From: Candidatus Hydrogenedens sp.
Lineage (GTDB): Bacteria > Hydrogenedentota > Hydrogenedentia > Hydrogenedentales > Hydrogenedentaceae
Assembly: GCA_049968235.1 (NCBI GenBank)
Contig: JBMFRC010000020.1
Location: forward strand, 1 to 59,355
Reading direction: 5' to 3'
DNA length: 59,355 nt
In this document: in pieces, positions 48,595 through 59,355 of the stretch
How positions within the stretch are numbered: the stretch's first letter is position 1
How the letters are laid out: each line of letters starts with the position of its first letter
Made by a program: the position numbers and the translations under genes
The notes under the pieces: model-generated
Databases searched by the model: none
Seen by the model: only the letters and a program-made list of their open reading frames with translations
Told to the model about the DNA's origin: nothing

Positions 48595-49692
48595 ATGCTT
48601 ATTGATTTTGGTGGGACGAAAGAAGAAGTGATTACTCGAAAAGAATTTCCTATGGCAAAGGCAAGGAAAGTTTTGAAGGACGAAGTAATTGCAATTATAG
48701 GGTATGGAGTTCAGGGTCCGGCGCAGAGTTTAAATTTGCGAGATAACGGTTTTAATGTAATTGTAGGACAGGACCCGAAATTTAAGTCCGATTGGGACCG
48801 TGCTGTAAAAGATGGCTGGAAACCTGGCAAAACTTTGTTTGATATTGAAGAAGCCTGTGAGAAAGGAACAATTATTCAATTATTGGTTTCTGATGCAGCA
48901 CAAAAAGCTATTTGGCCCGATGTAAAGAAGCATTTGAAACCCGGAGATGCCCTATATTTCTCTCATGGTTTTTCTATCGTATACAAAAATTTAACGAAAG
49001 TAATTCCGCCTGATTATGTGGATGTTATTATGGTTGCTCCAAAAGGGTCAGGTACTTCTGTTCGTAGAAATTTCTTGAGTGGTGCTGGTATTAATTCCAG
49101 TTATGCCGTTGCTCAAGACTATACGGGGAGAGCATTAGAACGATGCTTAGCACTTGGTATAGGTATCGGTTCTGGCTTCTTATTCCCGACTACTTTTGAA
49201 AATGAAGTATATAGCGATTTGACAGGTGAAAGAGGTGTATTAATGGGTGCCCTTGCAGGTATTATGGAAGCACAATATCAGGTTCTACGCGAGAATGGTC
49301 ATAGTCCCAGTGAGGCGTTCAACGAAACGGTAGAAGAACTTACACAGAGTTTAATCCGTCTTGTTGATGAGAACGGAATGGACTGGATGTATCAGAATTG
49401 TTCCGCAACGGCACAACGCGGTGCTTTGGATTGGAAACCTAAATTTAAAAAAGCAACGCTTCCTGTTTTTCGTGAATTGTATAAACGCGTGAAAGAAGGG
49501 GCTGAAACAAAGCGTGTATTAAAATCTTTGGGCAATCCAAATTATAAGCAGGAATTGCAGAAAGAACTTGCAGAAATGGCAAATAGTGAAATGTGGCTTG
49601 CCGGAAAAGCATGTAGGGCATTAAGACCCAAAGAACCTGCAAGTAAACAGATTAAGTCAAAAGTTGGAACCCAAGGAAGAACTAATTATTAA
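48595..49692 (+). CDS. ilvC: ketol-acid reductoisomerase (class I)
   Basis: Rossmann GYGVQGPAQSLNLRDNGFNV. The DFGGT...EFP N-terminal extension is as seen in some class I enzymes. C-terminal extension is present. Confidence 0.85.
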   Translation: MLIDFGGTKEEVITRKEFPMAKARKVLKDEVIAIIGYGVQGPAQSLNLRDNGFNVIVGQDPKFKSDWDRAVKDGWKPGKTLFDIEEACEKGTIIQLLVSDAAQKAIWPDVKKHLKPGDALYFSHGFSIVYKNLTKVIPPDYVDVIMVAPKGSGTSVRRNFLSGAGINSSYAVAQDYTGRALERCLALGIGIGSGFLFPTTFENEVYSDLTGERGVLMGALAGIMEAQYQVLRENGHSPSEAFNETVEELTQSLIRLVDENGMDWMYQNCSATAQRGALDWKPKFKKATLPVFRELYKRVKEGAETKRVLKSLGNPNYKQELQKELAEMANSEMWLAGKACRALRPKEPASKQIKSKVGTQGRTNY

Positions 49693-49720
49693 TGGGTTCA
49701 TTGTGTATTGATAATTATAT

Positions 49721-49749
49721 CCGGGAAGTGAAACTTCCCGGATTTTTTT
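49721..49749 (+). terminator. rho-independent terminator after ilvC
   Basis: CCGGGAAG-TGAAA-CTTCCCGG perfect 8-bp stem followed by ATTTTTTT. Confidence 0.6.
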
Positions 49750-49763
49750 GTGATGATTTAAAT

Positions 49764-50831
49764 ATGAAAAGAACAATCATTGAAACATACCTGTATAGTA
49801 AAGAAAAACCTTCTCGTTTCCTGTTTCCTGTATTAAATAGTTTGGCGTACTTCCAGAAATGGGGAATGTGGGTTCGTTCCCAAAAAACGGTTTATAGACC
49901 GAACATATATGTGGTGAGTTTCGGGGGGATTACAATAGGAGGAGTAGGTAAAACGCCCGCAGTTATAGAACGATTAGAAAATGAAACTAAAGATGGTAAT
50001 AAAAAAATTTGTGTAATTAGCAGGGGTTATGGAACAAAAAAATATAGGGGTATCATAGAAGGTTGTTATAAAGGGGAAAATGTCCATTTAAGGAAATATT
50101 ATAAAGAAAACAGATTTCCCGTAGAAGAGATAACCATTCCTATCAATAAGGCTTATACAATTTTGGGAGATGAATTATCATTAATCCTTTACCGTATAAA
50201 AAATATAACAGTGGTCAAAGATTCAAACCGAGTGAGGGCGGTAAAATGGGCAGAGCATAATGGATTTAATATGGTAATTTTGGATGATGCATATCAGTAT
50301 TTGATGATAGGTCGAAATGAAAATATTTTACTATTAAGTGCACTGAACCCATGGGGAAATGGACTTATTTTTCCAGCAGGTATTTTAAGGGAACCTTTGG
50401 ATGCTATGCATAGGGCAACAGAAATATGGATAACACACTGTGATCAGGTACCAAAGGAAAATTTGAAAAAATTGAAAATTTTTCTAAAAGATATTTGCCC
50501 GGAGAAAAAAATACGATGGACATACCATAAACCATTGTATTGGACAAAAAAGAATTCTTCCTATCAACTCCCTGTGGATTACTTCACAGGTAAGGATGTG
50601 GATGTATTTTGTGCGGTTGGAAATCCCCAATCCTTCTTAAATATATTGGGACGGCAACAAATAAATATTAAAAACACTTATCTATACCGTGACCATACAC
50701 CTATACCGAGCAAGATATTAAAAGGGGAGAGAGTTATCTTGACTACGGAGAAAAATCTTTTAACTTTGGAAGAAGAACGGGCAGAGGTGTATGCCCTTTG
50801 TATTGGACTTGCTGATTATTTATGGGATTAA
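49764..50831 (+). CDS. lpxK: tetraacyldisaccharide 4'-kinase
   Basis: P-loop VVSFGGITIGGVGKTP and ISRGYG motifs. Start moved to the ATG at 49764, downstream of the ilvC terminator. The ORF-track start at 49692 lies within the terminator hairpin region. Confidence 0.7.
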   Translation: MKRTIIETYLYSKEKPSRFLFPVLNSLAYFQKWGMWVRSQKTVYRPNIYVVSFGGITIGGVGKTPAVIERLENETKDGNKKICVISRGYGTKKYRGIIEGCYKGENVHLRKYYKENRFPVEEITIPINKAYTILGDELSLILYRIKNITVVKDSNRVRAVKWAEHNGFNMVILDDAYQYLMIGRNENILLLSALNPWGNGLIFPAGILREPLDAMHRATEIWITHCDQVPKENLKKLKIFLKDICPEKKIRWTYHKPLYWTKKNSSYQLPVDYFTGKDVDVFCAVGNPQSFLNILGRQQINIKNTYLYRDHTPIPSKILKGERVILTTEKNLLTLEEERAEVYALCIGLADYLWD

Positions 50832-51768
50832 TTTTATAAATCTTTAACTCTTCATATATATCTATTAGATCTCTTATTTCAAATTTACCTATGTCCCATA
50901 TCATAGCATTTGCAGTCCCTAATGCAACACCCAATCTTCCGGTATCCTCTATGGAAAACTTCTTGTGTAAACCAATTGCAAAACCAGCCACAAGAGCATC
51001 TCCTGAACCTACAGGATTTATTTCTTTTATTTTGGGGGGGACTATGTGAAAATAAGTATTATCCCGAAAAACAAGAGCCCCTTCCCGTCCCATAGACAAG
51101 ACCACCAGGGGTATTTTATGCGATTTGTGTAAATACTGAATGGCTTCTATTCTCGAATTTATATTTTTTAAGTCAGAATTTAAAAATTTAGATAGTTCCT
51201 CAATATTAGGTTTTACCATATAAGGTTTACTTTTTATGCCCTCTGAGAATTCATTACCATAAGTATCAAGTATGACTTTAGTTCCTTTATCATTTGCTAT
51301 TTTTATCAAATCTTTATATAAAAAGGATATTTCTGCATCAGGAACAGTTCCTGAAAGAACGACAATGGGTATCCTATGCGAGGATAGGATTTCCTCAAAT
51401 TTTTGAATAAAATTTTGATATTCTTCAATAGATATTTTAGGTCCTGGTTCAAAGAAAGCAGTTTGTCTCCACGATTTTTCTTCAAGGACAGTGGTTATTG
51501 TTCTTGTTGGAATTTCAGTCCATACAGGGAAACATGTAACCCTATCATTTTCGCAAAGCATTTTTATCACTTGTTTCCCCGTGTATCCTCCGACCCACAA
51601 CAGAGCACCAGCACGAAATCCTAATGTTACTAATACGCGGGCAACATTGTTCCCCTTACCACCGGATATTTGTGTATATTTATAGGCACGAACTCTATCA
51701 CCGGGTTTGAATTCTCGAATAAAAACGGTTTTGTCGATGCATGGATTGGGTGTAACAGTAAGGAACAT
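50743..51768 (-). CDS. PfkB-family carbohydrate kinase (1-phosphofructokinase/tagatose-6-P kinase-like)
   Basis: N-terminus LTVTPNPCIDKT and C-terminal PVGSGDALVAGF (GAGD-type anion hole). Confidence 0.7.
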   Translation of the reverse strand: MFLTVTPNPCIDKTVFIREFKPGDRVRAYKYTQISGGKGNNVARVLVTLGFRAGALLWVGGYTGKQVIKMLCENDRVTCFPVWTEIPTRTITTVLEEKSWRQTAFFEPGPKISIEEYQNFIQKFEEILSSHRIPIVVLSGTVPDAEISFLYKDLIKIANDKGTKVILDTYGNEFSEGIKSKPYMVKPNIEELSKFLNSDLKNINSRIEAIQYLHKSHKIPLVVLSMGREGALVFRDNTYFHIVPPKIKEINPVGSGDALVAGFAIGLHKKFSIEDTGRLGVALGTANAMIWDIGKFEIRDLIDIYEELKIYKINPINNQQVQYKGHTPLPVLLPKLKDFSP

Positions 51769-51776
51769 AGGTATAA

Positions 51777-52754
51777 TTATTTATGTTCTTCGTAATATCT
51801 TGTTAAGGCACAACCTGCACAACCGATAACGCCACTGTCTTCACCTAAACCGGCGGGGACAATCTCACATCGTTTTGCTGGCACTTCAAAGGCATTTTTC
51901 ATTACTGTTTCCCGAACAGGGTTAAATAAAACATTACCTGCGGATATCATTCCACCACAAAGAATAACCCGTTCTGGATTTAACATATTAACGATGCTGG
52001 CAATACCCAGACCGAGCCATACTGCTGTTTCATGGAATACTTCCCTGGCAAGTGCGTCGCCTTTTTCGACTGCCTGAAAAATCATCTTACCCGTGATAGT
52101 ATGAATATTGTTATGGCATATTTCTGTCAATATAGTTTTCTTTCCTTTTTCAATTTCTTCCTGTGCAGTGCGGACCATACCCGTTACCGATGCGTACGCT
52201 TCTAAACATCCTTTAGAACCACAACCGCATAATCTACCATCCCTCTGGACCTTCAAATGTCCTAATTCTCCTGCAGTTCCATCAATACCACGCAGCAACT
52301 TCTTAAAAACAACAATACCACCACCTACTCCTGTGCCTAATGTCAGCACCGCGATACAATCACAACCCTGGCCTGCTCCCAGCCAATATTCTCCAAAACA
52401 TGCTGCATTCGCATCATTTTCAATATAACAGGGGACATTTAACCGTTTTCGCATTTCGTCGGCTAAAGGGACATTATGCCAGCCTGGCAAATTCGGTGGG
52501 CTATATACAATTCCCGTTTGCCAATTCATCGGACCCGGTGCACCAATTCCAACGGATAAAATATCTTGAGTCGTTAGACCTTCCTTATCCATTAACTCAT
52601 GCACGACATCAGCCATAGCATCCATAATGGCTTTGGGTCCTTCCTGTGTGGGCGTAGGGACGCTTGTTTTCACAACGATTCTTTTCTCTTCAGATACAAT
52701 AGCAGATTTTATATTTGTTCCGCCCAAATCAACACCAATAATATATTTACTCAC
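51777..52754 (-). CDS. ROK-family glucokinase
   Basis: IIGVDLGGTNIKSAIV. ROK zinc motif CGCGSKGCLEAYAS. Confidence 0.8.
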   Translation of the reverse strand: MSKYIIGVDLGGTNIKSAIVSEEKRIVVKTSVPTPTQEGPKAIMDAMADVVHELMDKEGLTTQDILSVGIGAPGPMNWQTGIVYSPPNLPGWHNVPLADEMRKRLNVPCYIENDANAACFGEYWLGAGQGCDCIAVLTLGTGVGGGIVVFKKLLRGIDGTAGELGHLKVQRDGRLCGCGSKGCLEAYASVTGMVRTAQEEIEKGKKTILTEICHNNIHTITGKMIFQAVEKGDALAREVFHETAVWLGLGIASIVNMLNPERVILCGGMISAGNVLFNPVRETVMKNAFEVPAKRCEIVPAGLGEDSGVIGCAGCALTRYYEEHK

Positions 52755-54216
52755 AGTTTATACCTCCTTTGTTATGTAAATATTCAATGGCTCTGGAAAG
52801 TCGTTCCAGTGTTTTTTCTTTCCCTAACAATTCCATAAGTTCAAAGAAGCCCGGTCCAACCGATTTTCCCGTAAGTGCAAGGCGTGTAGGATTTATCAAT
52901 GCACCTAATTTTATATTAAATTCAGCACAAACTTCATCAAAAACCTGCTTTAACGGGTCATGTTCCCACACAGATACACAGGACAGTTTAGTCTGAACCT
53001 TTTTTAGATAAGTAATTACCGTTTCTGGCGTTTTCCATAATTTTGCTTCCGCTTCCGATTCATAAGTATCAAAATCCTTGAAAAAGAAGTCAGAAAGAAA
53101 CACAATTCGATTTAAAGTTGGCAATTTTTCCTGACAAATTTGAGCCAATTTTGTCAACCATTCCTTACTTTTTGTAGATGTGTTAAACCCATGCTTTTCG
53201 AGGATAGGTATAAGGCGGTCACGAAGGTCTTCAACCGATAAATTGCGAATATGCAAACCATTAAGCCATTCTAATTTTTTCCGGTCAAATCGTGCAGCAG
53301 ACTTGTTAATTCGTTCGATTGAAAAATGTTCAATAAGTTCGGGCAGAGTAAAAAACTCGCGATTTTCCTCCTCCGATGTCCAGCCTAAAAGTGCTACATA
53401 GTTAACAATAGCCTCCGGCACATACCCATCTTCCCGCCAATCTAACACATTCGCACCATGCAATCTCTTACTAAACTTTCGACCTTGCTCATCATGAACC
53501 AGCGGATGATGTGCATAATGGGGGAGCGGAGCATCCAATGCCTTGAAAAGCATAATGTGGCGGGGGGTATTTGTTAAATGGTCATCACCGCGAATGACAT
53601 GCGTTATTTTCATCGTAATATCATCTACAACTACAGCCAGATGAAAAACCGGATCACCATTGGCACGAAGAATGATAAAATCATCATACTGACTGTTCTT
53701 AAAAACAACCGTCCCTTGAATAAGGTCATTTACCACCGTCTCACCTTCCGGCACACGAAAACGAATTACATAAGGGGCATCCCCTTTTTCACGAACCTGT
53801 TCCGGGGTTAAATTCCTGCAAAAACCCGGATAATACAGATTCCCTGTTTCATCTTTATAAGATTCCAAACTTTCCTTTGAACAAAAACACTTATAGGCTT
53901 TCCCCCGTTCCAATAATTGATAAGCCATTTTCCTATAAAGTTCTTTCCGTTGACTTTGACGGTAAGGAGCATAATCCCCTTTCTCAGGCACATCACCAAA
54001 CGGGGGTCCCTCATCCCAATCAATCCCTAACCACTTAAACCCCTCACACATCCCGAAAACATACTGTTCATCTGTTCGCTCCGCATCAGTGTCTTCCAAT
54101 CTTAATATAAATGTTCCCTTATTCTTACGAGCAAAAAGCCAATTATACAATGCAGTCTTAGCAGTACCTATATGCAAAAAGCCTGAAGGCGAAGGTGCTA
54201 TTCGTGTGCGAACCAT
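52747..54216 (-). CDS. gltX: glutamate--tRNA ligase
   Basis: HIGH motif PSPSGFLHIGTAKTA. KMSKS variant KFSKR. Confidence 0.9.
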   Translation of the reverse strand: MVRTRIAPSPSGFLHIGTAKTALYNWLFARKNKGTFILRLEDTDAERTDEQYVFGMCEGFKWLGIDWDEGPPFGDVPEKGDYAPYRQSQRKELYRKMAYQLLERGKAYKCFCSKESLESYKDETGNLYYPGFCRNLTPEQVREKGDAPYVIRFRVPEGETVVNDLIQGTVVFKNSQYDDFIILRANGDPVFHLAVVVDDITMKITHVIRGDDHLTNTPRHIMLFKALDAPLPHYAHHPLVHDEQGRKFSKRLHGANVLDWREDGYVPEAIVNYVALLGWTSEEENREFFTLPELIEHFSIERINKSAARFDRKKLEWLNGLHIRNLSVEDLRDRLIPILEKHGFNTSTKSKEWLTKLAQICQEKLPTLNRIVFLSDFFFKDFDTYESEAEAKLWKTPETVITYLKKVQTKLSCVSVWEHDPLKQVFDEVCAEFNIKLGALINPTRLALTGKSVGPGFFELMELLGKEKTLERLSRAIEYLHNKGGINCE

Positions 54217-54418: not shown

Positions 54419-54450
54419 AAAAAAAATAAATGCCCCCACTGGGAGGGCAT
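54419..54450 (-). terminator. intrinsic terminator of the tracrRNA
   Basis: Minus-strand RNA AUGCCCUC-CCAGU-GGGGGCAU: 8-bp stem (one G-U), 5-nt loop, followed by UUUAUUUUUUUU. Confidence 0.6.
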
Positions 54451-54492
54451 TGGCTACCTTTTACGGATACCCTTACGCAGCAGAACTCCTTA

Positions 54493-54528
54493 CTATGTTA
54501 AGAGGAGAAATGCTCGCTCTGCTATAAT
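54493..54528. repeat. solitary degenerate CRISPR repeat copy, inverted relative to the array (encodes the tracrRNA anti-repeat)
   Basis: CTATGTTAAGAGGAGAAATGCTCGCTCTGCTATAAT versus the reverse complement of the array repeat, GCTATGTTTTGAGGGAAGTGCTCGCTCTGCTATAAT. The 3' 18 nt and 5' 7 nt are identical; the middle is diverged. Confidence 0.75.
54520..54528 (+). promoter_or_regulatory. putative cas9 promoter: extended -10 TGCTATAAT contributed by the degenerate repeat
   Basis: Perfect TGnTATAAT on the + strand, 116 nt upstream of the cas9 ATG. No recognisable -35. Confidence 0.35.
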
Positions 54529-54536
54529 CTTTTTTA

Positions 54537-54565
54537 ATTATAGCAAAAAAAAATTGAAATGTCAA
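54537..54565 (-). promoter_or_regulatory. tracrRNA promoter (consensus sigma70 with extended -10)
   Basis: On the minus strand: TTGACA (54565..54560), exactly 17 nt spacer, TGCTATAAT (54545..54537). The predicted TSS is about 54530, at the first nucleotides of the anti-repeat. Confidence 0.6.
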
Positions 54566-54643: not shown

Positions 54644-57600
54644 ATGAACAATACAGATAACTTTGATAACTTTAGTCCTTATACATTAGGTCTTGATTTA
54701 GGTTCCAATTCTATCGGTTGGGCACTTATTAAATTAGATGAGAACGATAATCCCTGTGGAATTGAGAAGGTGGGTGTTCGCGTATTTGAGGCGGGTATGG
54801 AAGGTCAGTATGAAAGTGGAAAAGAAGAATCGCGAAATAAAAAAAGAAGGGATGCCCGGTTAGCTCGTCGTCAATATGAACGCCGTGCTCGAAGGTATCG
54901 TAAGTTAGCAAACTTACTTCAGAAGATAGGATTACTTCCGGAGGGCGATATGAATAATAGTTTAGAAAGGCAAGCCATTCTGGATACATTAGATAAGGAA
55001 TTACGTTCCAGATATATTAATCCCAATCTTCCTGAAGAAGAAAAAAATCGACTGAACCAAATATTTATCTATTACCTCCGTTCATTGGCAGTCGAGCAGA
55101 AGTTAGAACCGTTTGCATTAGGACGTATCCTATATCATTTATGTCAGAGACGCGGATTCTTAAGTAATCGTCGTGGACAAAAACAAGATGATGAAGAACG
55201 AGGAAAAGTAAAGGAAGGAATCGCCGAAATTCGACAGGAAATGAGCCGATTAGGTGCAGAAACACTCGGTAGATATTTTGCTAAAATTGACCCTCTTGAA
55301 AAACGAATACGCGGGAGATGGACTGCCCGTGATATGTATGAACAAGAATTCTATACTATCTGGGAACACCAGGCAAAATATTATCCAGAACTACTCAACG
55401 ATACAAATAAAAAACAAATCTTCCGTGCAATATTTTTTCAACGCCCCTTAAAATCGCAAAAAGATAAAATTGGGTTTTGCCAGTTTGAATGTATCAAACT
55501 AGGTGCCCAACGCAACCGTCGCCGGGCTCCATGGTTTATACTCAAAGCACAAAGGTTCAGATTGCTACAAAAAGTGAATGATTTGTTAATTGTAGAAGAT
55601 AAGTTTACAAAAAGACCTCTCACAGATGATGAACGAAAAATAATTATAGACCATCTTGAAAAATATGGAGATGAAACCTTTGCACAATTGCGCAAACTGT
55701 TGGGTTTGAAAAAGACAGTAAAATTCAATCTGGAAGAAGGTGGAGAAAAGAAAATTCGTGGAAATAGAACCGCAGGTGCTATTCGTGAAGTTATCGGTGA
55801 ACTATGGGACAACATGCCGGATGCGGAGCGGGATAAACTTGTTGAAGATATATATTCCATTGTCAGTAATAAAGCATTAAAGAAACGATTAATAAACCAT
55901 TGGAAATTCACAGAAGAACAAGCAGAAAAATTATCGGAAATAAGCATTGAAGATGGTTACTGCAATCTATCCCGTCAGGCAATTGATAAATTCCTGCCTG
56001 GACTGGAATCGGGAAAACACTATTCTACATTAGTCAAAGAAATTTATGGGATAGATGACATTAATATCATAGTTAACCTGTTACCCCCCTTAGAATCCGC
56101 CCCTATTGGCGAAATTCGGAATCCAACCGTAACACGAACATTGGCGGAAATGAGAAAAATCGTTAACGAACTTGTAAAACGATATGGCAAGCCAAAGTTT
56201 ATTCATATTGAAACTGCACGAGATTTAAGGAATACAAAAAAAGAACGAGAGAAGATTTGGAAAAATAACAGATATTTGGAAGAAGTTCGTGAAAAAATAA
56301 AAAAAGACCTGATAAGTAAAGGTATCTCCAATCCAACAAATGATGATGTTGAACGATATATGTTAGCAGATGAGTGTGGTTGGGTTTGTCCTTATACAGG
56401 TCGTTCTATTAGTTTTAATGCCTTATTTGTCGAATCTCAATTCGATATAGAACATATAATTCCGCTCAGCCGCTGTCTCGATAATTCATTCAAGAATAAA
56501 ACATTGTGTTATCACGAGGAAAATAGGAATAGAAAGCATAATCAAACGCCGTTTGAAGCCTATGGCTCAAATGAAACACAATGGAATGAAATTTTAAGAA
56601 GGGTCGAAAATTTTAGTTCGATATACGCAGTAGAAAAATTAAAACGATTTAAAATGCACGGGGAAGATTTAGACGAATTCATCGATAAGTTTTCTGCATC
56701 TCAATTAAATGACACGCGCTACGCTTCGAGAGAAGCAAGAATATACTGTGCTTTGCTATACGGAAAAGAATATCGAAAACATGTATTCACCGTATCTGGT
56801 TCAACAACAGCAGTCATACGGCGTATGTGGGATTTGAATAAGATATTAGGTAGTGCGGAAAAAAATAGAGAAGACCATCGACAGCATGCTATCGACGCTA
56901 TCGTAATTGCCCTGACTTCACCTGCAATGATAAAGAGCATTTCCCAACAGGCAGAAAAAATCCCGAAAGATACCCCCAAACGATACCGCTGGTGGAGACA
57001 TATTAAACCGCCATGGGATACTATCTTTAACGAAGCCCATGAAAAAGTGCTGAATATTATTGTCTCACACCGTCCCGAACGAAAAGTGAGCGGTAGACTT
57101 CATGAGGAAACAAATTACAGTCCACCCAAACCCGGTGATAAAGAAGGAGAAACCGTTGTTCATGTAAGAAAATCTTTAAGTAATATTTCTAAGGGTGAGA
57201 TAGAAGAAATTGTTGACCCGGTTGTTAGGGAAACAGTAAAAAAGAAATTAGAAGAATTGGGGGGAGACCCGAAAAAAGCCTTTGCTGACCCCGCGAATTA
57301 TCCATTAATGCCCAATAAGAAAGGACTTCATATACCTATACGCCATGTGCGTATTCGTAAAAAAATGAATGTTTTCCCCATAGGCAAAAATGAACGAATT
57401 CGTTATGTCGCCACAGATGAAAATCACCATGTGGAAATTTTTGAGACAAAAGATAAAAAAGGAAAAACCATCTGGGATGCTAATGTGGTCAGCATGTTCG
57501 AAGCAATGCAACGAAAGAAAGAGGGCAAAGAAATTATCCAGCGAAAACTTATCCGCGATGGGAAAGTTGTCGAAGATGCAAAATTCCTCTTTAGCCTCTG

Positions 57601-57844
57601 CAAAGGAGATGTGGTTTACATGAAAGAATTGTATGATGAAAACAAATATGAATACTTTAAATTAATAAAAATGGATATAAACTGTGTATTTATGTTTCTT
57701 CCAATTTACATGGCAAAAATACCACAAAAAAATGGTAAGAAGGATTTTACAGGATTAACAAGAAAACCAAGTTCTCTTTTAACTTCTGATGCAAAGAAAT
57801 GTTCTATCAATGTTTTAGGAGAAGTGCAAATAGCACATGACTGA
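54644..57844 (+). CDS. cas9: Cas9, type II-C (1066 aa)
   Basis: RuvC-I LGLDLGSNSIGWAL (Asp18). Arg-rich bridge helix RRDARLARRQYERRARRYRKL. RuvC-II IHIETARD (Glu523). HNH FDIEHIIP...N (His604, codon 56453..56455). RuvC-III HHAIDAIVIA (His748/Asp751). The ATG at 54644 lies 7 nt after AAGGAG. The ORF-track start at 54554 adds a spurious 30-aa extension. Confidence 0.9.
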   Translation: MNNTDNFDNFSPYTLGLDLGSNSIGWALIKLDENDNPCGIEKVGVRVFEAGMEGQYESGKEESRNKKRRDARLARRQYERRARRYRKLANLLQKIGLLPEGDMNNSLERQAILDTLDKELRSRYINPNLPEEEKNRLNQIFIYYLRSLAVEQKLEPFALGRILYHLCQRRGFLSNRRGQKQDDEERGKVKEGIAEIRQEMSRLGAETLGRYFAKIDPLEKRIRGRWTARDMYEQEFYTIWEHQAKYYPELLNDTNKKQIFRAIFFQRPLKSQKDKIGFCQFECIKLGAQRNRRRAPWFILKAQRFRLLQKVNDLLIVEDKFTKRPLTDDERKIIIDHLEKYGDETFAQLRKLLGLKKTVKFNLEEGGEKKIRGNRTAGAIREVIGELWDNMPDAERDKLVEDIYSIVSNKALKKRLINHWKFTEEQAEKLSEISIEDGYCNLSRQAIDKFLPGLESGKHYSTLVKEIYGIDDINIIVNLLPPLESAPIGEIRNPTVTRTLAEMRKIVNELVKRYGKPKFIHIETARDLRNTKKEREKIWKNNRYLEEVREKIKKDLISKGISNPTNDDVERYMLADECGWVCPYTGRSISFNALFVESQFDIEHIIPLSRCLDNSFKNKTLCYHEENRNRKHNQTPFEAYGSNETQWNEILRRVENFSSIYAVEKLKRFKMHGEDLDEFIDKFSASQLNDTRYASREARIYCALLYGKEYRKHVFTVSGSTTAVIRRMWDLNKILGSAEKNREDHRQHAIDAIVIALTSPAMIKSISQQAEKIPKDTPKRYRWWRHIKPPWDTIFNEAHEKVLNIIVSHRPERKVSGRLHEETNYSPPKPGDKEGETVVHVRKSLSNISKGEIEEIVDPVVRETVKKKLEELGGDPKKAFADPANYPLMPNKKGLHIPIRHVRIRKKMNVFPIGKNERIRYVATDENHHVEIFETKDKKGKTIWDANVVSMFEAMQRKKEGKEIIQRKLIRDGKVVEDAKFLFSLCKGDVVYMKELYDENKYEYFKLIKMDINCVFMFLPIYMAKIPQKNGKKDFTGLTRKPSSLLTSDAKKCSINVLGEVQIAHD

Positions 57845-58730
57845 ACATATTATAGACCTGTCCGAAGAAGGTGGACGGCTGAATATCGATTTAGAACGAT
57901 TAGCAATAACACAAGGGGAGAAGGAATTTTTTATTCCCTTAGCAGAAGTATCTGTGGTAATTGTTTCACATCCGGCTGTAACTTTAACACAACCCGTATT
58001 GTCCGGCTTAATGAAGTATGGAGCCGTATTTATTACCTGTGATGAAAAACGAATGCCCATCGGTATGATGTATCCATTAGTGGGACATCATCTACAAATG
58101 GAAAAATTAAAATATCAGATAGAAGCCTCTTTACCTATACGCAAACGAGCATGGCAACAGATTATTAAATCAAAAATTCAAGCACAGGGAAACTTATTAT
58201 TAGAATTACACGGAGACGATAAAGGTCTAATTCCATTAGCAGAACGCGTGCAGTCCGGTGACCCGGATAATGTGGAAGGACTGGCAAGCAGGAAGTATTG
58301 GAATTTTTTATTCCCAGCCGAATTTGAGTTCCATCGAAATCCAGAAGCAGGGGGAATTAATGCCCTGCTGAATTATGGATATGCTATTCTACGCGGGATT
58401 ACAGCAAGAGCCATCGTTAGTGCAGGGCTAAATCCAAGTATCGGCATTCATCATCACAACCGATATAATCCGTTTTGCCTCGCTGATGATTTAATGGAAC
58501 CCTATCGACCCATTGTAGATTTTGCTGTGGTGAAGTTTATGCGGGGAAAAGATGCCTTTGTTGAACTAAATAAAGAAGCAAAACAATTTCTGATACAAAA
58601 TTTGATGAAAAAATATAAAATGAATGATGAAGAACGAAACTTGTTCGATATTACTTTTAGAACCGCTGTATCCCTTGCTCAGATGTTTGAGGGAAAAAGA
58701 AAAACATTAATACTCCCTGAAATTGTATAA
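57837..58730 (+). CDS. cas1: Cas1 (type II)
   Basis: Motifs CDEKRMP, LNYGYAIL, DLMEPYRP are shared with type II Cas1. An 8-nt overlap with the cas9 stop indicates translational coupling. Confidence 0.9.
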   Translation: MTEHIIDLSEEGGRLNIDLERLAITQGEKEFFIPLAEVSVVIVSHPAVTLTQPVLSGLMKYGAVFITCDEKRMPIGMMYPLVGHHLQMEKLKYQIEASLPIRKRAWQQIIKSKIQAQGNLLLELHGDDKGLIPLAERVQSGDPDNVEGLASRKYWNFLFPAEFEFHRNPEAGGINALLNYGYAILRGITARAIVSAGLNPSIGIHHHNRYNPFCLADDLMEPYRPIVDFAVVKFMRGKDAFVELNKEAKQFLIQNLMKKYKMNDEERNLFDITFRTAVSLAQMFEGKRKTLILPEIV

Positions 58731-58849
58731 ATATAATCCATGGCTAAAAAAGCCACGAACTTGCAAATTAAGAACAAATTAAACCATGAAAAGCCATGAG
58801 CAAGAAAAAAGATAAAAATAAAAAACCTCAAATATCAGGATATAAATCT

Positions 58850-59155
58850 ATGTGGATGATCGCTATGTTCGATTTACCTGTGGAAACAAATGAAGACCGA
58901 AAACATGCTACGCAGTTTCGAAATTTGCTATTAAGAGAAGGATACTCCATGTTGCAGTTTTCCGTTTATGGCAGATATTTCCCAAGCGAAGAAGCAAGTG
59001 AACCCTATAAAAAAAGAATTCGTCAAAGTATTCCACCACGAGGAGAAGTCCGACTCCTCTATATTACTGATAAACAGTTCGAGAAAATGGAAATCTTCGT
59101 GTCAAAAAAGAAACGAAAAGCAGAAGAACCTACCCCACAATTACTACTTTTTTAA
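58850..59155 (+). CDS. cas2: Cas2
   Basis: MWMIAMFDLPV...RNLLLREGYSMLQFSVY matches the Cas2 core (MLVLVTYDV-type start). The ATG at 58850 lies after AGGA. The ORF-track start at 58796 adds a Lys-rich 18 aa without an SD. Confidence 0.8.
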   Translation: MWMIAMFDLPVETNEDRKHATQFRNLLLREGYSMLQFSVYGRYFPSEEASEPYKKRIRQSIPPRGEVRLLYITDKQFEKMEIFVSKKKRKAEEPTPQLLLF

Positions 59156-59204: not shown

Positions 59205-59355
59205 ATTATAGCAGAGCGAGCACTTCCCTCAAAACATAGCTTATCCATTAGCAACTCTCTAACGGTTACCATTATAGCAGAGCGAGCACTTCCCTCAAAA
59301 CATAGCAGACTCGAATTGACATTGACACCACCGACAATTATAGCAGAGCGAGCAC
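59205..59355. CRISPR. CRISPR array, 36-bp repeat ATTATAGCAGAGCGAGCACTTCCCTCAAAACATAGC, 30-bp spacers; truncated by the window end; probably transcribed on the minus strand
   Basis: Identical repeats at 59205..59240 and 59271..59306, and a partial one at 59337..59355. Spacers at 59241..59270 and 59307..59336. The minus-strand form of each repeat ends in TGCTATAAT. Confidence 0.9.

What the first reader, a model, noticed from the sequence alone, without database searches (positions are those of the whole stretch)
54644..57844. Cas9 ortholog features: Cys pairs flanking the HNH active site and a short PAM-interacting C-terminus
Cysteines 578/582 (ECGWVCPY) and 611/622 (CLDNSFKNKTLC) bracket the catalytic His604. 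Four cysteines bracketing His604 suggest a structural zinc site. The C-terminal ~200 aa (from KKGLHIPIRHVRIRKK onward), which should specify the PAM, has no similarity I can recognise to characterised II-C PAM-interacting domains. The PAM is therefore unpredictable from sequence and would need to be determined experimentally. The protein is small enough for AAV-size packaging.
Basis: partly seen in the sequence, partly recalled or inferred. Interest (0 to 1): 0.65.

Follow-up and report, generated by a model that had tools for sequence, protein, structure and literature searches.

The report
Ordinary type II-C Cas9 locus
This is a complete, apparently functional but ordinary compact CRISPR-Cas9 system from an uncultivated Hydrogenedens bacterium; its cysteine cluster is a partly conserved remnant of an old zinc finger, and its DNA-motif-reading tail has the usual fold but an unknown specificity.

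Summary
The ORF 54644-57844 (+) is a 1066-aa type II-C Cas9 (TIGR01865, 746.6 bits) of Candidatus Hydrogenedens. It sits in a complete locus: minus-strand tracrRNA, cas9, cas1, cas2 and a CRISPR array cut by the window end.

Four of 13 Cys within 45 residues is not unusual by chance (p about 0.12).

Conservation splits the four. C578, C582 and C622 are 95-99% conserved across 151 divergent clade representatives. C611 is Cys in only 23% (Ser in 66%). C582 is the first ligand of the ancestral CX2C...CX2C HNH zinc finger (AnaCas9). Rare clade members with that canonical finger lack C578 and/or C622. A rewired structural metal site is therefore plausible (about 50%) but unproven, because no coordinates were available.

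The C-terminus has the standard II-C WED/PI fold (Foldseek E down to 5e-13, TM 0.55-0.60 to Nme, Geo, Thermo and Bl Cas9) at only 19-23% identity. Its last ~66 residues are a hypervariable module swapped between close orthologues. The PAM is unknown, and protospacer searches found nothing.

Verdict: a new member of a known kind, of low to moderate interest.

The parts
54537..54565 (-). Promoter of the tracrRNA: TTGACA, 17-nt spacer, TATAAT, with TG extension
   Evidence: 12 of 12 consensus match. The promoter is conserved upstream of the cas9 orthologues in L007 and L008.
54421..54530 (-). tracrRNA, about 110 nt. Anti-repeat about 54492-54528; UAAGG nexus-like motif; intrinsic terminator 54429-54451 plus a T run
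   Evidence: Inverted repeat with the CRISPR repeats. Terminator found. The crRNA repeat:tracrRNA duplex is -76.7 kcal/mol against -43.1 +/- 2.8 for shuffled repeats. The anti-repeat is identical in L007 and L008.
54644..57844 (+). cas9, 1066 aa, type II-C. Catalytic residues by alignment: RuvC D18, E523, H748, D751; HNH E603, H604, N618, N627
   Evidence: Pfam HNH_4, RuvC_III and Cas9_a. TIGR01865 scores 746.6 bits against a cut-off of 100. Best solved relatives are Nme1/Nme2Cas9, E 7e-80. 99% identical to a partial NCBI MAG protein and 83% to the full-length Ca. Hydrogenedens Cas9 P0001.
56249..56683 (+). HNH nuclease domain (about aa 536-680)
   Evidence: AlphaFold2 model of aa 521-681 has pLDDT 94. 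Foldseek TM 0.7-0.84 to the Nme, Geo, Thermo and Hpa Cas9 HNH domains.
56375..56509 (+). Cys cluster C578, C582, C611, C622 around His604
   Evidence: Positions. Conservation: C578 96%, C582 99%, C622 95%, C611 23%. The triad is mutually exclusive with the canonical CX2C...CX2C ligands.
57029..57841 (+). WED plus PAM-interacting region (about aa 796-1066; boundaries approximate)
   Evidence: AlphaFold2 model has pLDDT 91. Full-length Foldseek alignment to the Nme2, Nme1, Thermo, Bl and Geo Cas9 C-termini: E 5e-13 to 1e-10, TM 0.55-0.60, 19-23% identity.
57644..57841 (+). Hypervariable terminal PI module (aa 1001-1066), the likely PAM-specifying part
   Evidence: Protein identity to P0001 is 82-89% in every other domain but 48% here. 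To P0003 it is 77% here. Nucleotide identity shows the same discordance: L004 drops to 56%, L009 rises to 82%.
57837..58730 (+). cas1 (297 aa), overlapping the cas9 stop by 8 nt
   Evidence: PF01867. TIGR03639 cas1_NMENI scores 269 bits against a cut-off of 120.
58796..59155 (+). cas2 (119 aa)
   Evidence: PF09827. TIGR01573.
59205..59355 (-). CRISPR array, cut by the window end. The 36-nt repeat is ATTATAGCAGAGCGAGCACTTCCCTCAAAACATAGC as written on the + strand, with 30-nt spacers. The crRNA is read from the minus strand; in that orientation each repeat ends in TGCTATAAT (an extended -10 box)
   Evidence: The identical repeat occurs in metagenomic arrays of 33-36 repeats. Orientation is deduced from the tracrRNA strand.

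Best explanation
The region encodes a conventional, probably active type II-C Cas9 of Candidatus Hydrogenedens, within a complete locus: tracrRNA, cas9, cas1, cas2 and a CRISPR array.

Inferred mechanism, by homology to NmeCas9 and GeoCas9:
- crRNAs are read from the minus strand of the array, probably from the extended -10 box at the end of each repeat.
- They pair with the minus-strand tracrRNA and guide Cas9 to PAM-flanked DNA.
- The HNH site (E603, H604, N618, N627) cuts the target strand. The RuvC site (D18, E523, H748, D751) cuts the other strand.

The cysteine cluster is a clade-specific derivative of the ancestral HNH zinc finger.
- C582 is the surviving first ligand; it corresponds to AnaCas9 C566 and is also kept in Nme and Geo.
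- The other three canonical ligand positions are T585, Y623 and E626.
- C578 and C622 are new, nearly invariant cysteines of a very large environmental II-C clade.
- C611 is an addition seen mainly in the Hydrogenedens subclade.
- I consider it about 50% likely that these thiols hold a structural (not catalytic) Zn2+ that staples the helix before beta-1, the beta-1 knuckle and beta-3. C611 or H624 would be the fourth ligand in this protein. Otherwise they are core-packing residues.

The C-terminus is a normal II-C WED/PI domain. Its last ~66 residues form a swappable, hypervariable module that most likely sets the PAM. That PAM is unknown.
For: Shown:
- Family membership.
- Catalytic residues aligned with NmeCas9.
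- tracrRNA with a 12/12 promoter, a terminator and a -76.7 kcal/mol duplex with the repeat. It is conserved in orthologous loci.
- Array with an identical repeat in long metagenomic arrays.
- Cys conservation.
- Members with the canonical CPYC...CxxCN pattern (P0147, P0227, P0254) lack C578 and/or C622. Fisher p = 0.0002-0.008.
- Confident HNH and C-terminal models with II-C folds.
- Mosaic terminal module.

Inferred: the cleavage mechanism, repeat-internal promoters (by analogy with type II-C, PMC5965381), metal binding, and the PAM role of aa 1001-1066.
Against: - No biochemical data exist for any member of this clade, and none has a solved structure. The best PDB relative is about 30% identical.
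- For the metal site: C611 is Ser in two-thirds of the clade.
- 29% of triad-bearing members have no fourth Cys or His nearby.
- C622 lies one residue before the canonical third-ligand position, so its side chain may face the other way.
- Other invariant Cys (C279, and C582 itself in Nme and Geo) exist without any known metal.
- The exclusivity statistics rest on only 2-4 lineages.
- The metal-binding acidic residue is Glu603, not the Asp of characterised Cas9s. It is conserved in the clade, but its activity is untested.
Confidence: 0.85

Rival explanations
1. One reading: C578, C582, C611 and C622 together form a bona fide tetrahedral Cys4 structural zinc site in this protein.
For: All four are Cys in every close orthologue (P0001-P0015) and the HNH model is confident in this region. 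Three of them are 95-99% conserved clade-wide. The ancestral HNH fold carries a Cys4 zinc finger at this locus (PMC4333417).
Against: C611 is Ser in 66% of clade representatives and in GeoCas9, and Thr in NmeCas9. The spacing is non-canonical. The cluster alone is not beyond chance. No coordinates were available to check geometry.
Confidence: 0.3
2. A metal site is built on the conserved triad C578/C582/C622, with a non-Cys611 fourth ligand: H624, a carboxylate such as the invariant E577 or D613, or water. C611 would be a bystander.
For: The triad is what is conserved. H624 is present here and in 29% of representatives. E577 is 100% and D613 93% conserved.
Against: No single candidate fourth ligand is both conserved and known to be nearby. 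41 of 139 triad members have no Cys or His nearby. E577 is also E or Q in zinc-free Cas9s.
Confidence: 0.2
3. There is no metal. The cysteines are buried packing residues and evolutionary leftovers of a lost zinc finger, as C566 is in NmeCas9.
For: C582 is retained in Nme and Geo Cas9, whose HNH domains lack the other ligands. C279 is invariant without a known metal role. Losses of C578 and C622 are to small residues (Ser, Ala), typical of core positions. The fourth ligand is not conserved.
Against: 95-99% conservation of two clade-specific Cys at 40-50% overall identity, in proteins with 1% Cys, is stronger than usual for packing. Their loss coincides with reappearance of the canonical ligands.
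Confidence: 0.45

Closest known systems
Neisseria meningitidis Nme1Cas9 / Nme2Cas9 (type II-C; PDB 6kc8, 6jdq, 6jfu)
   Same: - Best solved sequence relatives, E 7e-80.
- Same size class (1082 aa) and the same domain order.
- HNH fold TM 0.7-0.79. WED/PI fold TM 0.57-0.60 over the full length.
- Same locus layout, with the crRNA read towards cas2 and an extended -10 box at the repeat end.
- Hypervariable PI module between close orthologues. The Nme1/Nme2 case is from my own knowledge (Edraki et al. 2019).
   Different: - About 30% identity overall and 19-22% in the C-terminus.
- Nme has only the C582-equivalent Cys (C566), with Q, T and V at the other three positions.
- Nme uses Asp587 where this protein has Glu603.
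- The PAM-contacting residues cannot be mapped.
GeoCas9 / ThermoCas9 (PDB 8uza, 8jtj, 9ar4) and BlCas9 (8x5v)
   Same: The C-terminal region gives weak sequence hits: BlCas9 E 5e-6, GeoCas9 E 2e-3, extending to about residue 1000. Foldseek E about 1e-11 with 20-23% identity. HNH TM up to 0.84.
   Different: The last ~66 residues have no sequence match. A profile of 892-1066 alone no longer detects them. The Geo HNH has only the first Cys.
AnaCas9 HNH zinc finger (PDB 4ogc/4oge) and other Zn-finger HNH nucleases (Gme HNH, T4 endonuclease VII, McrA)
   Same: Same beta-beta-alpha-metal fold (TM 0.64-0.65). C582 occupies the first zinc-ligand position in the conserved C-x-Y-x-G knuckle. Rare members of this clade still carry the full CX2C...CX2C set.
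   Different: Canonical ligands 2, 3 and 4 are T585, Y623 and E626 here. The extra cysteines sit at -4 (C578), -1 of ligand 3 (C622), and in the turn after beta-2 (C611). My mapping of the Ana ligands C566/C569/C602/C605 is from memory. It is consistent with the published D581, N597, N606 and K609 numbering (PMC5304195, PMC6706240).
Uncharacterised environmental II-C Cas9 clade (Hydrogenedentes, Planctomycetota, Zixibacteria, Chloroflexi, Brocadiales MAGs)
   Same: - 150 representatives at 50% clustering all score above 670 bits.
- They share the EC-x-W-x-CPYTG ... NKTLC motifs.
- P0001 (83% identity) has the identical CRISPR repeat.
- P0003 (GCA_000405145.1) has the same gltX-cas9 synteny.
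- These proteins are already annotated as Cas9 by NCBI and JGI.
   Different: This exact full-length sequence is not in the collection; only a 655-aa partial at 99% identity is. The terminal PI module differs from the closest orthologue.

Membership tests
Cas9 (type II CRISPR effector) | Curated equivalog model TIGR01865 matched above its cut-off over the full length | tested here: met
   746.6 bits against a cut-off of 100, covering profile positions 1-1070.
Cas9 (type II CRISPR effector) | Split RuvC-like domain with catalytic Asp, Glu, His and Asp | tested here: met
   D18, E523, H748 and D751 align with NmeCas9 motifs. Pfam RuvC_III, E 9e-18.
Cas9 (type II CRISPR effector) | Inserted HNH domain with a catalytic His and the two Asn residues | tested here: met
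   HNH_4 scores 72.8 bits. H604, N618 and N627 are invariant in 151 relatives. The metal ligand is Glu603 (93% of the clade) rather than Asp.
Cas9 (type II CRISPR effector) | tracrRNA with an anti-repeat complementary to the CRISPR repeat | tested here: met
Cas9 (type II CRISPR effector) | RNA-guided, PAM-dependent double-strand DNA cleavage | not testable with these tools
   Needs biochemistry.
Subtype II-C | cas9-cas1-cas2 only (no csn2 or cas4), with a compact Cas9 | tested here: met
   cas2 ends at 59155 and the array starts at 59205, with no further ORF between them. Cas1 matches cas1_NMENI. The region beyond the array lies outside the window.
Zinc-finger HNH (AnaCas9 / T4 endo VII / McrA type) | CX2C knuckle immediately before beta-1 | tested here: not met
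   The sequence is C582-P-Y-T585. The second position is Thr or Ser in 97% of the clade. A CX3C (C578...C582) is present instead.
Zinc-finger HNH (AnaCas9 / T4 endo VII / McrA type) | CX2C (or CX2H) directly before the metal-binding Asn of the helix | tested here: not met
   Y623 and E626 precede N627. C622 lies one residue upstream.
Zinc-finger HNH (AnaCas9 / T4 endo VII / McrA type) | All four ligands conserved among relatives | tested here: not met
   C611 is Cys in 23% of 151 representatives and 60% of the 120 closest homologues. The other three are 95-100% conserved.
Zinc-finger HNH (AnaCas9 / T4 endo VII / McrA type) | Four ligand atoms converge within bonding distance; Zn is present | not testable with these tools
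   The structure tool returns no coordinates. There is no metal analysis.
Nme/Geo-type II-C WED + PAM-interacting domain | Shared fold over the whole C-terminal region | tested here: met
   Foldseek E 5e-13 to 1e-10, 274-304 aligned columns, TM 0.55-0.60.
Nme/Geo-type II-C WED + PAM-interacting domain | Sequence similarity high enough to transfer the PAM | tested here: not met
   19-23% identity. A profile of 892-1066 finds only CbCas9, E 3e-6. The last 66 aa are only 48% identical even to the 83%-identical orthologue.

The most novel reading that the evidence does not exclude
The large environmental II-C clade that includes this protein carries a rewired structural metal site in its HNH domain. 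The site is built on C578, C582 and C622, completed by C611 in Hydrogenedens. It would have replaced the ancestral CX2C...CX2C zinc finger. That would be a third state between zinc-finger HNH domains (AnaCas9, IscB-like) and zinc-free ones (Sp, Nme, Geo Cas9).
Probability: 0.4. Interest if true: 0.4.

Novelty: new member of a known kind. Interest (0 to 1): 0.25.

Why it matters
As a genome-editing candidate it is one more compact (3.2 kb) II-C Cas9. Its guide RNA is fully definable: the tracrRNA, repeat and strand were worked out here. Its PAM is untested. At least 150 sequence clusters (50% identity) of similar enzymes exist in public data, so its value depends entirely on what PAM and activity experiments reveal.

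Two points have some wider interest.
- The Cys triad is a testable case of how the HNH zinc finger decayed or was rewired during Cas9 evolution.
- The discordant last ~66 residues show PAM-module swapping among close relatives, as in Neisseria. This warns against transferring PAMs between orthologues that share a repeat.

Tried and rejected
1. Direct geometric test of the zinc site. The AlphaFold2 HNH model is confident (pLDDT 94). No coordinates are exposed, so S-S distances could not be measured. Strand register from DSSP alone was too ambiguous to use.

2. PAM inference from protospacers. The material was the two window spacers plus about 105 spacers from arrays with the identical or a near-identical repeat (L002, L003, L005, L006, L009, L010). 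The searches were:
- 8 IMG/VR scans
- 2 GTDB genome scans
- BLAST of three arrays against GenBank phages, and of one (L010) against plasmids
- local BLAST against all held loci
No usable protospacer was found. Only chance-level hits appeared (E 0.2-0.7).

3. Extending the array. The only public contig with the identical cas2 ends about 180 nt after it.

4. Rfam scan of the tracrRNA region: nothing significant. tracrRNAs of this clade are not in Rfam.

5. Jinek et al. 2014 (PMC4184034) is not held. The AnaCas9 ligand numbers therefore rest on my memory plus secondary papers.

6. Rejected: that the C-terminus is a novel PAM-interacting fold.

7. Rejected: that the four-Cys clustering is statistically remarkable on its own.

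8. Rejected: the longer TTG start at 54554. It has no Shine-Dalgarno sequence, and the homologues do not cover it.
Full report
**Observation.** The ORF at 54644-57844 (+) translates to 1066 aa plus stop.
- The ATG has an AGGAG ribosome-binding site, and homologues begin aligning at residues 8-14. This start is therefore preferred over the mechanical TTG at 54554.
- Cys578/Cys582 (ECGWVCPY), Cys611/Cys622 (CLDNSFKNKTLC), His604 (DIEHIIP) and KKGLHIPIRHVRIRKK (892-907) are exactly as described.
- The tail from K892 is 175 aa, not ~200.
- With 13 Cys in the protein, four within 45 residues arises in 11.5% of random placements. The clustering alone is therefore not evidence.

**What it is.**
- The protein hits Pfam HNH_4, RuvC_III and Cas9_a. 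It matches the Cas9 equivalog TIGR01865 at 746.6 bits over the whole profile.
- The best solved relatives are Nme1/Nme2Cas9 (E 7e-80), then ThermoCas9, GeoCas9 and HpaCas9.
- RuvC residues D18, E523, H748 and D751, and HNH residues E603, H604, N618 and N627, align with the catalytic residues of NmeCas9.
- cas1 (cas1_NMENI, 269 bits) and cas2 follow directly.
- A CRISPR array starts at 59205 with a 36-nt repeat and 30-nt spacers. It is cut by the window end.
- There is no csn2 or cas4, so this is type II-C.

**Source organism and relatives.**
- The organism is Candidatus Hydrogenedens. A 655-aa partial NCBI MAG protein is 99% identical, and the closest full-length protein (P0001) is 83% identical.
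- The gltX-cas9 synteny is shared with GCA_000405145.1.
- The protein belongs to a very large uncharacterised environmental clade. All 150 listed representatives at 50% clustering score above 670 bits.

**Guide RNAs.**
- An anti-repeat lies upstream of cas9.
- On the minus strand it is preceded by a perfect TTGACA-17-TATAAT promoter with a TG extension (54565-54537). It is followed by an intrinsic terminator (54451-54429).
- This gives a ~110-nt tracrRNA (54530 to 54421).
- The tracrRNA pairs with the minus-strand reading of the repeat at -76.7 kcal/mol, against -43.1 +/- 2.8 for shuffled repeats.
- It is conserved in the orthologous loci L007 and L008.
- In crRNA orientation each repeat ends in TGCTATAAT, an extended -10 box. 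This fits the repeat-internal promoters described for type II-C (PMC5965381). That last step is inference.

**The cysteines: conservation.**
- Among the 120 closest homologues, C578 is 97% conserved, C582 100%, C622 100% and C611 60%, with Ser in 39%.
- Among 151 sequences (150 clade representatives plus the query), C578 is 96%, C582 99% and C622 95%. C611 is only 23%, with Ser in 66%.
- The conserved unit is therefore a triad, not a quartet.

**The cysteines: relation to the ancestral zinc finger.**
- C582 sits in the C-x-Y-x-G knuckle shared with Nme and Geo Cas9, where it is the only Cys.
- It corresponds to the first ligand of the CX2C...CX2C zinc finger that stabilises the AnaCas9 HNH fold (PMC4333417, PMC5304195). 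The ligand numbering is from my memory. It is consistent with published D581, N597, N606 and K609.
- The other canonical ligand positions are T585, Y623 and E626 here.
- A few clade members still have the canonical set (P0147: CPYC...CWDCN; P0227: CPYC...CRACN; P0254). These have lost C578 and/or C622.
- The exclusivity is significant (Fisher p 0.0002-0.008), although it rests on few lineages.
- This suggests that the triad occupies the functional place of the old finger.

**The cysteines: evidence against an obligatory tetrahedral site.**
- 41 of 139 triad-bearing representatives have no further Cys or His nearby.
- C622 is one residue out of register with canonical ligand 3.
- Invariant cysteines without a known metal exist in the same proteins (C279; C582 in Nme).
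- The HNH model is confident (pLDDT 94) and Nme/Geo-like. No coordinates were available, so the decisive distance test could not be run.
- I put a structural metal site at about 50%.

**The C-terminus.**
- Sequence similarity to solved Cas9s is weak. Residues 816-1066 hit BlCas9 (E 5e-6) and GeoCas9 (E 2e-3), only up to about residue 1000.
- A clade profile of 892-1066 detects only CbCas9 (E 3e-6).
- At fold level, the AlphaFold2 model of 790-1066 (pLDDT 91) aligns over its whole length to the WED+PI regions of Nme2, Nme1, Thermo, Bl, Geo and Hpa Cas9. Values are E 5e-13 to 1e-10, TM 0.55-0.60 and 19-23% identity.
- The domain is therefore standard for II-C and of normal length. It is not a new kind of PAM reader, but it is too divergent to transfer a PAM.
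- Residues 1001-1066 are hypervariable among otherwise close orthologues. P0001 is 82-89% identical in all other domains but 48% here, while the more distant P0003 is 77% identical here.
- Nucleotide identity shows the same discordance: L004 falls to 56% and L009 rises to 82% in the last window.
- This is the signature of PI-module exchange known from Nme1/Nme2Cas9 (my knowledge). It means that spacers from arrays with the same repeat cannot safely be pooled to infer this enzyme's PAM.

**PAM attempt.**
- About 105 spacers were collected from arrays with the identical or a near-identical repeat. They were searched against IMG/VR, GTDB genomes, GenBank phages, plasmids (one array only) and all held loci.
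- No real protospacer was found.
- The PAM remains undetermined. Sequence-based predictors such as Protein2PAM (bioRxiv 10.1101/2025.01.06.631536) could be applied, so 'unpredictable from sequence' is too strong.

**Size.** 1066 aa (3.2 kb) falls in the range of Cas9s packaged in single AAV vectors: CjeCas9 at 984 aa, SauriCas9 at 1061 and Nme2Cas9 at 1082 (PMC8560862). This is typical of type II-C rather than special.

**Verdict.**
This is a Cas9 with a possible, non-canonical and only partly conserved metal site. Its PI domain is divergent but has an ordinary fold.
- It is a new member of a known kind, already annotated as Cas9 in public MAGs.
- Interest is low to moderate.

Noticed in passing
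L002 spacer 10 and L003 spacer 13; homologous sites at window 55256-55283 and near the 3' end of cas9 in L004 (10988-11011): Two spacers in metagenomic arrays with the identical repeat appear to derive from a cas9 orthologue. GCAGAAACATTAGGAAAATATTTTGCTACA encodes AETLGKYFAT; the window has AETLGRYFAK, a 24/28 nt match with most of the mismatches at wobble positions. It matches 24/30 in L007 and L008. ATTAATAAATGTTTTATTGATGTATTAGGA encodes INKCFIDVLG, against KKCSINVLG at the Cas9 C-terminus. This may reflect related cas9 loci on mobile elements, or inter-strain CRISPR conflict. The true source was not found.
   Followed up: partly
window 57644-57841 (Cas9 aa 1001-1066): The terminal PI module is phylogenetically discordant with the rest of cas9. 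It is 48% identical to the 83%-identical orthologue, but 77% identical to a 78%-identical one. Nucleotide identity is 56% against 82%. This suggests recombinational PAM-module exchange.
   Followed up: yes
window 59205-59355 (- strand) and L002/L003/L005: In crRNA orientation each repeat ends with the extended -10 box TGCTATAAT, as in Neisseria type II-C. L002 and L003 share old spacers on the cas-distal side and differ on the cas2-proximal side. L005 shows a degenerate terminal repeat at the distal end. New spacers therefore enter next to cas2, although crRNAs are read towards cas2.
   Followed up: partly
window 56450-56452 (Cas9 E603): The HNH metal-binding acidic residue directly before the catalytic His is Glu (DIEH) in 93% of this clade. 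Characterised Cas9s (Sp, Sa, Nme, Geo, Ana) have Asp there.
   Followed up: no
window 55478-55480 (Cas9 C279): Cys279 in the REC-lobe motif G-x-C-x-F-E is invariant in all 151 clade sequences. It is also present in NmeCas9 (LGHCTFE). It is a fourth highly conserved Cys with no obvious partner.
   Followed up: no
window 49692-54216 and L009/L011: The chromosomal context lpxK, pfkB-family kinase, ROK glucokinase, gltX, then cas9 is conserved between this window and Ca. Hydrogenedens assembly GCA_000405145.1. This indicates a vertically inherited chromosomal CRISPR locus in the genus.
   Followed up: partly
L007 2138-3779 and L008 857-1804: In two orthologous loci the region upstream of cas9 carries an N6/N4 DNA methyltransferase. 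In L007 it also carries a nucleotidyltransferase/HEPN pair. These defence or toxin-antitoxin-like genes are absent from the window's upstream region.
   Followed up: no
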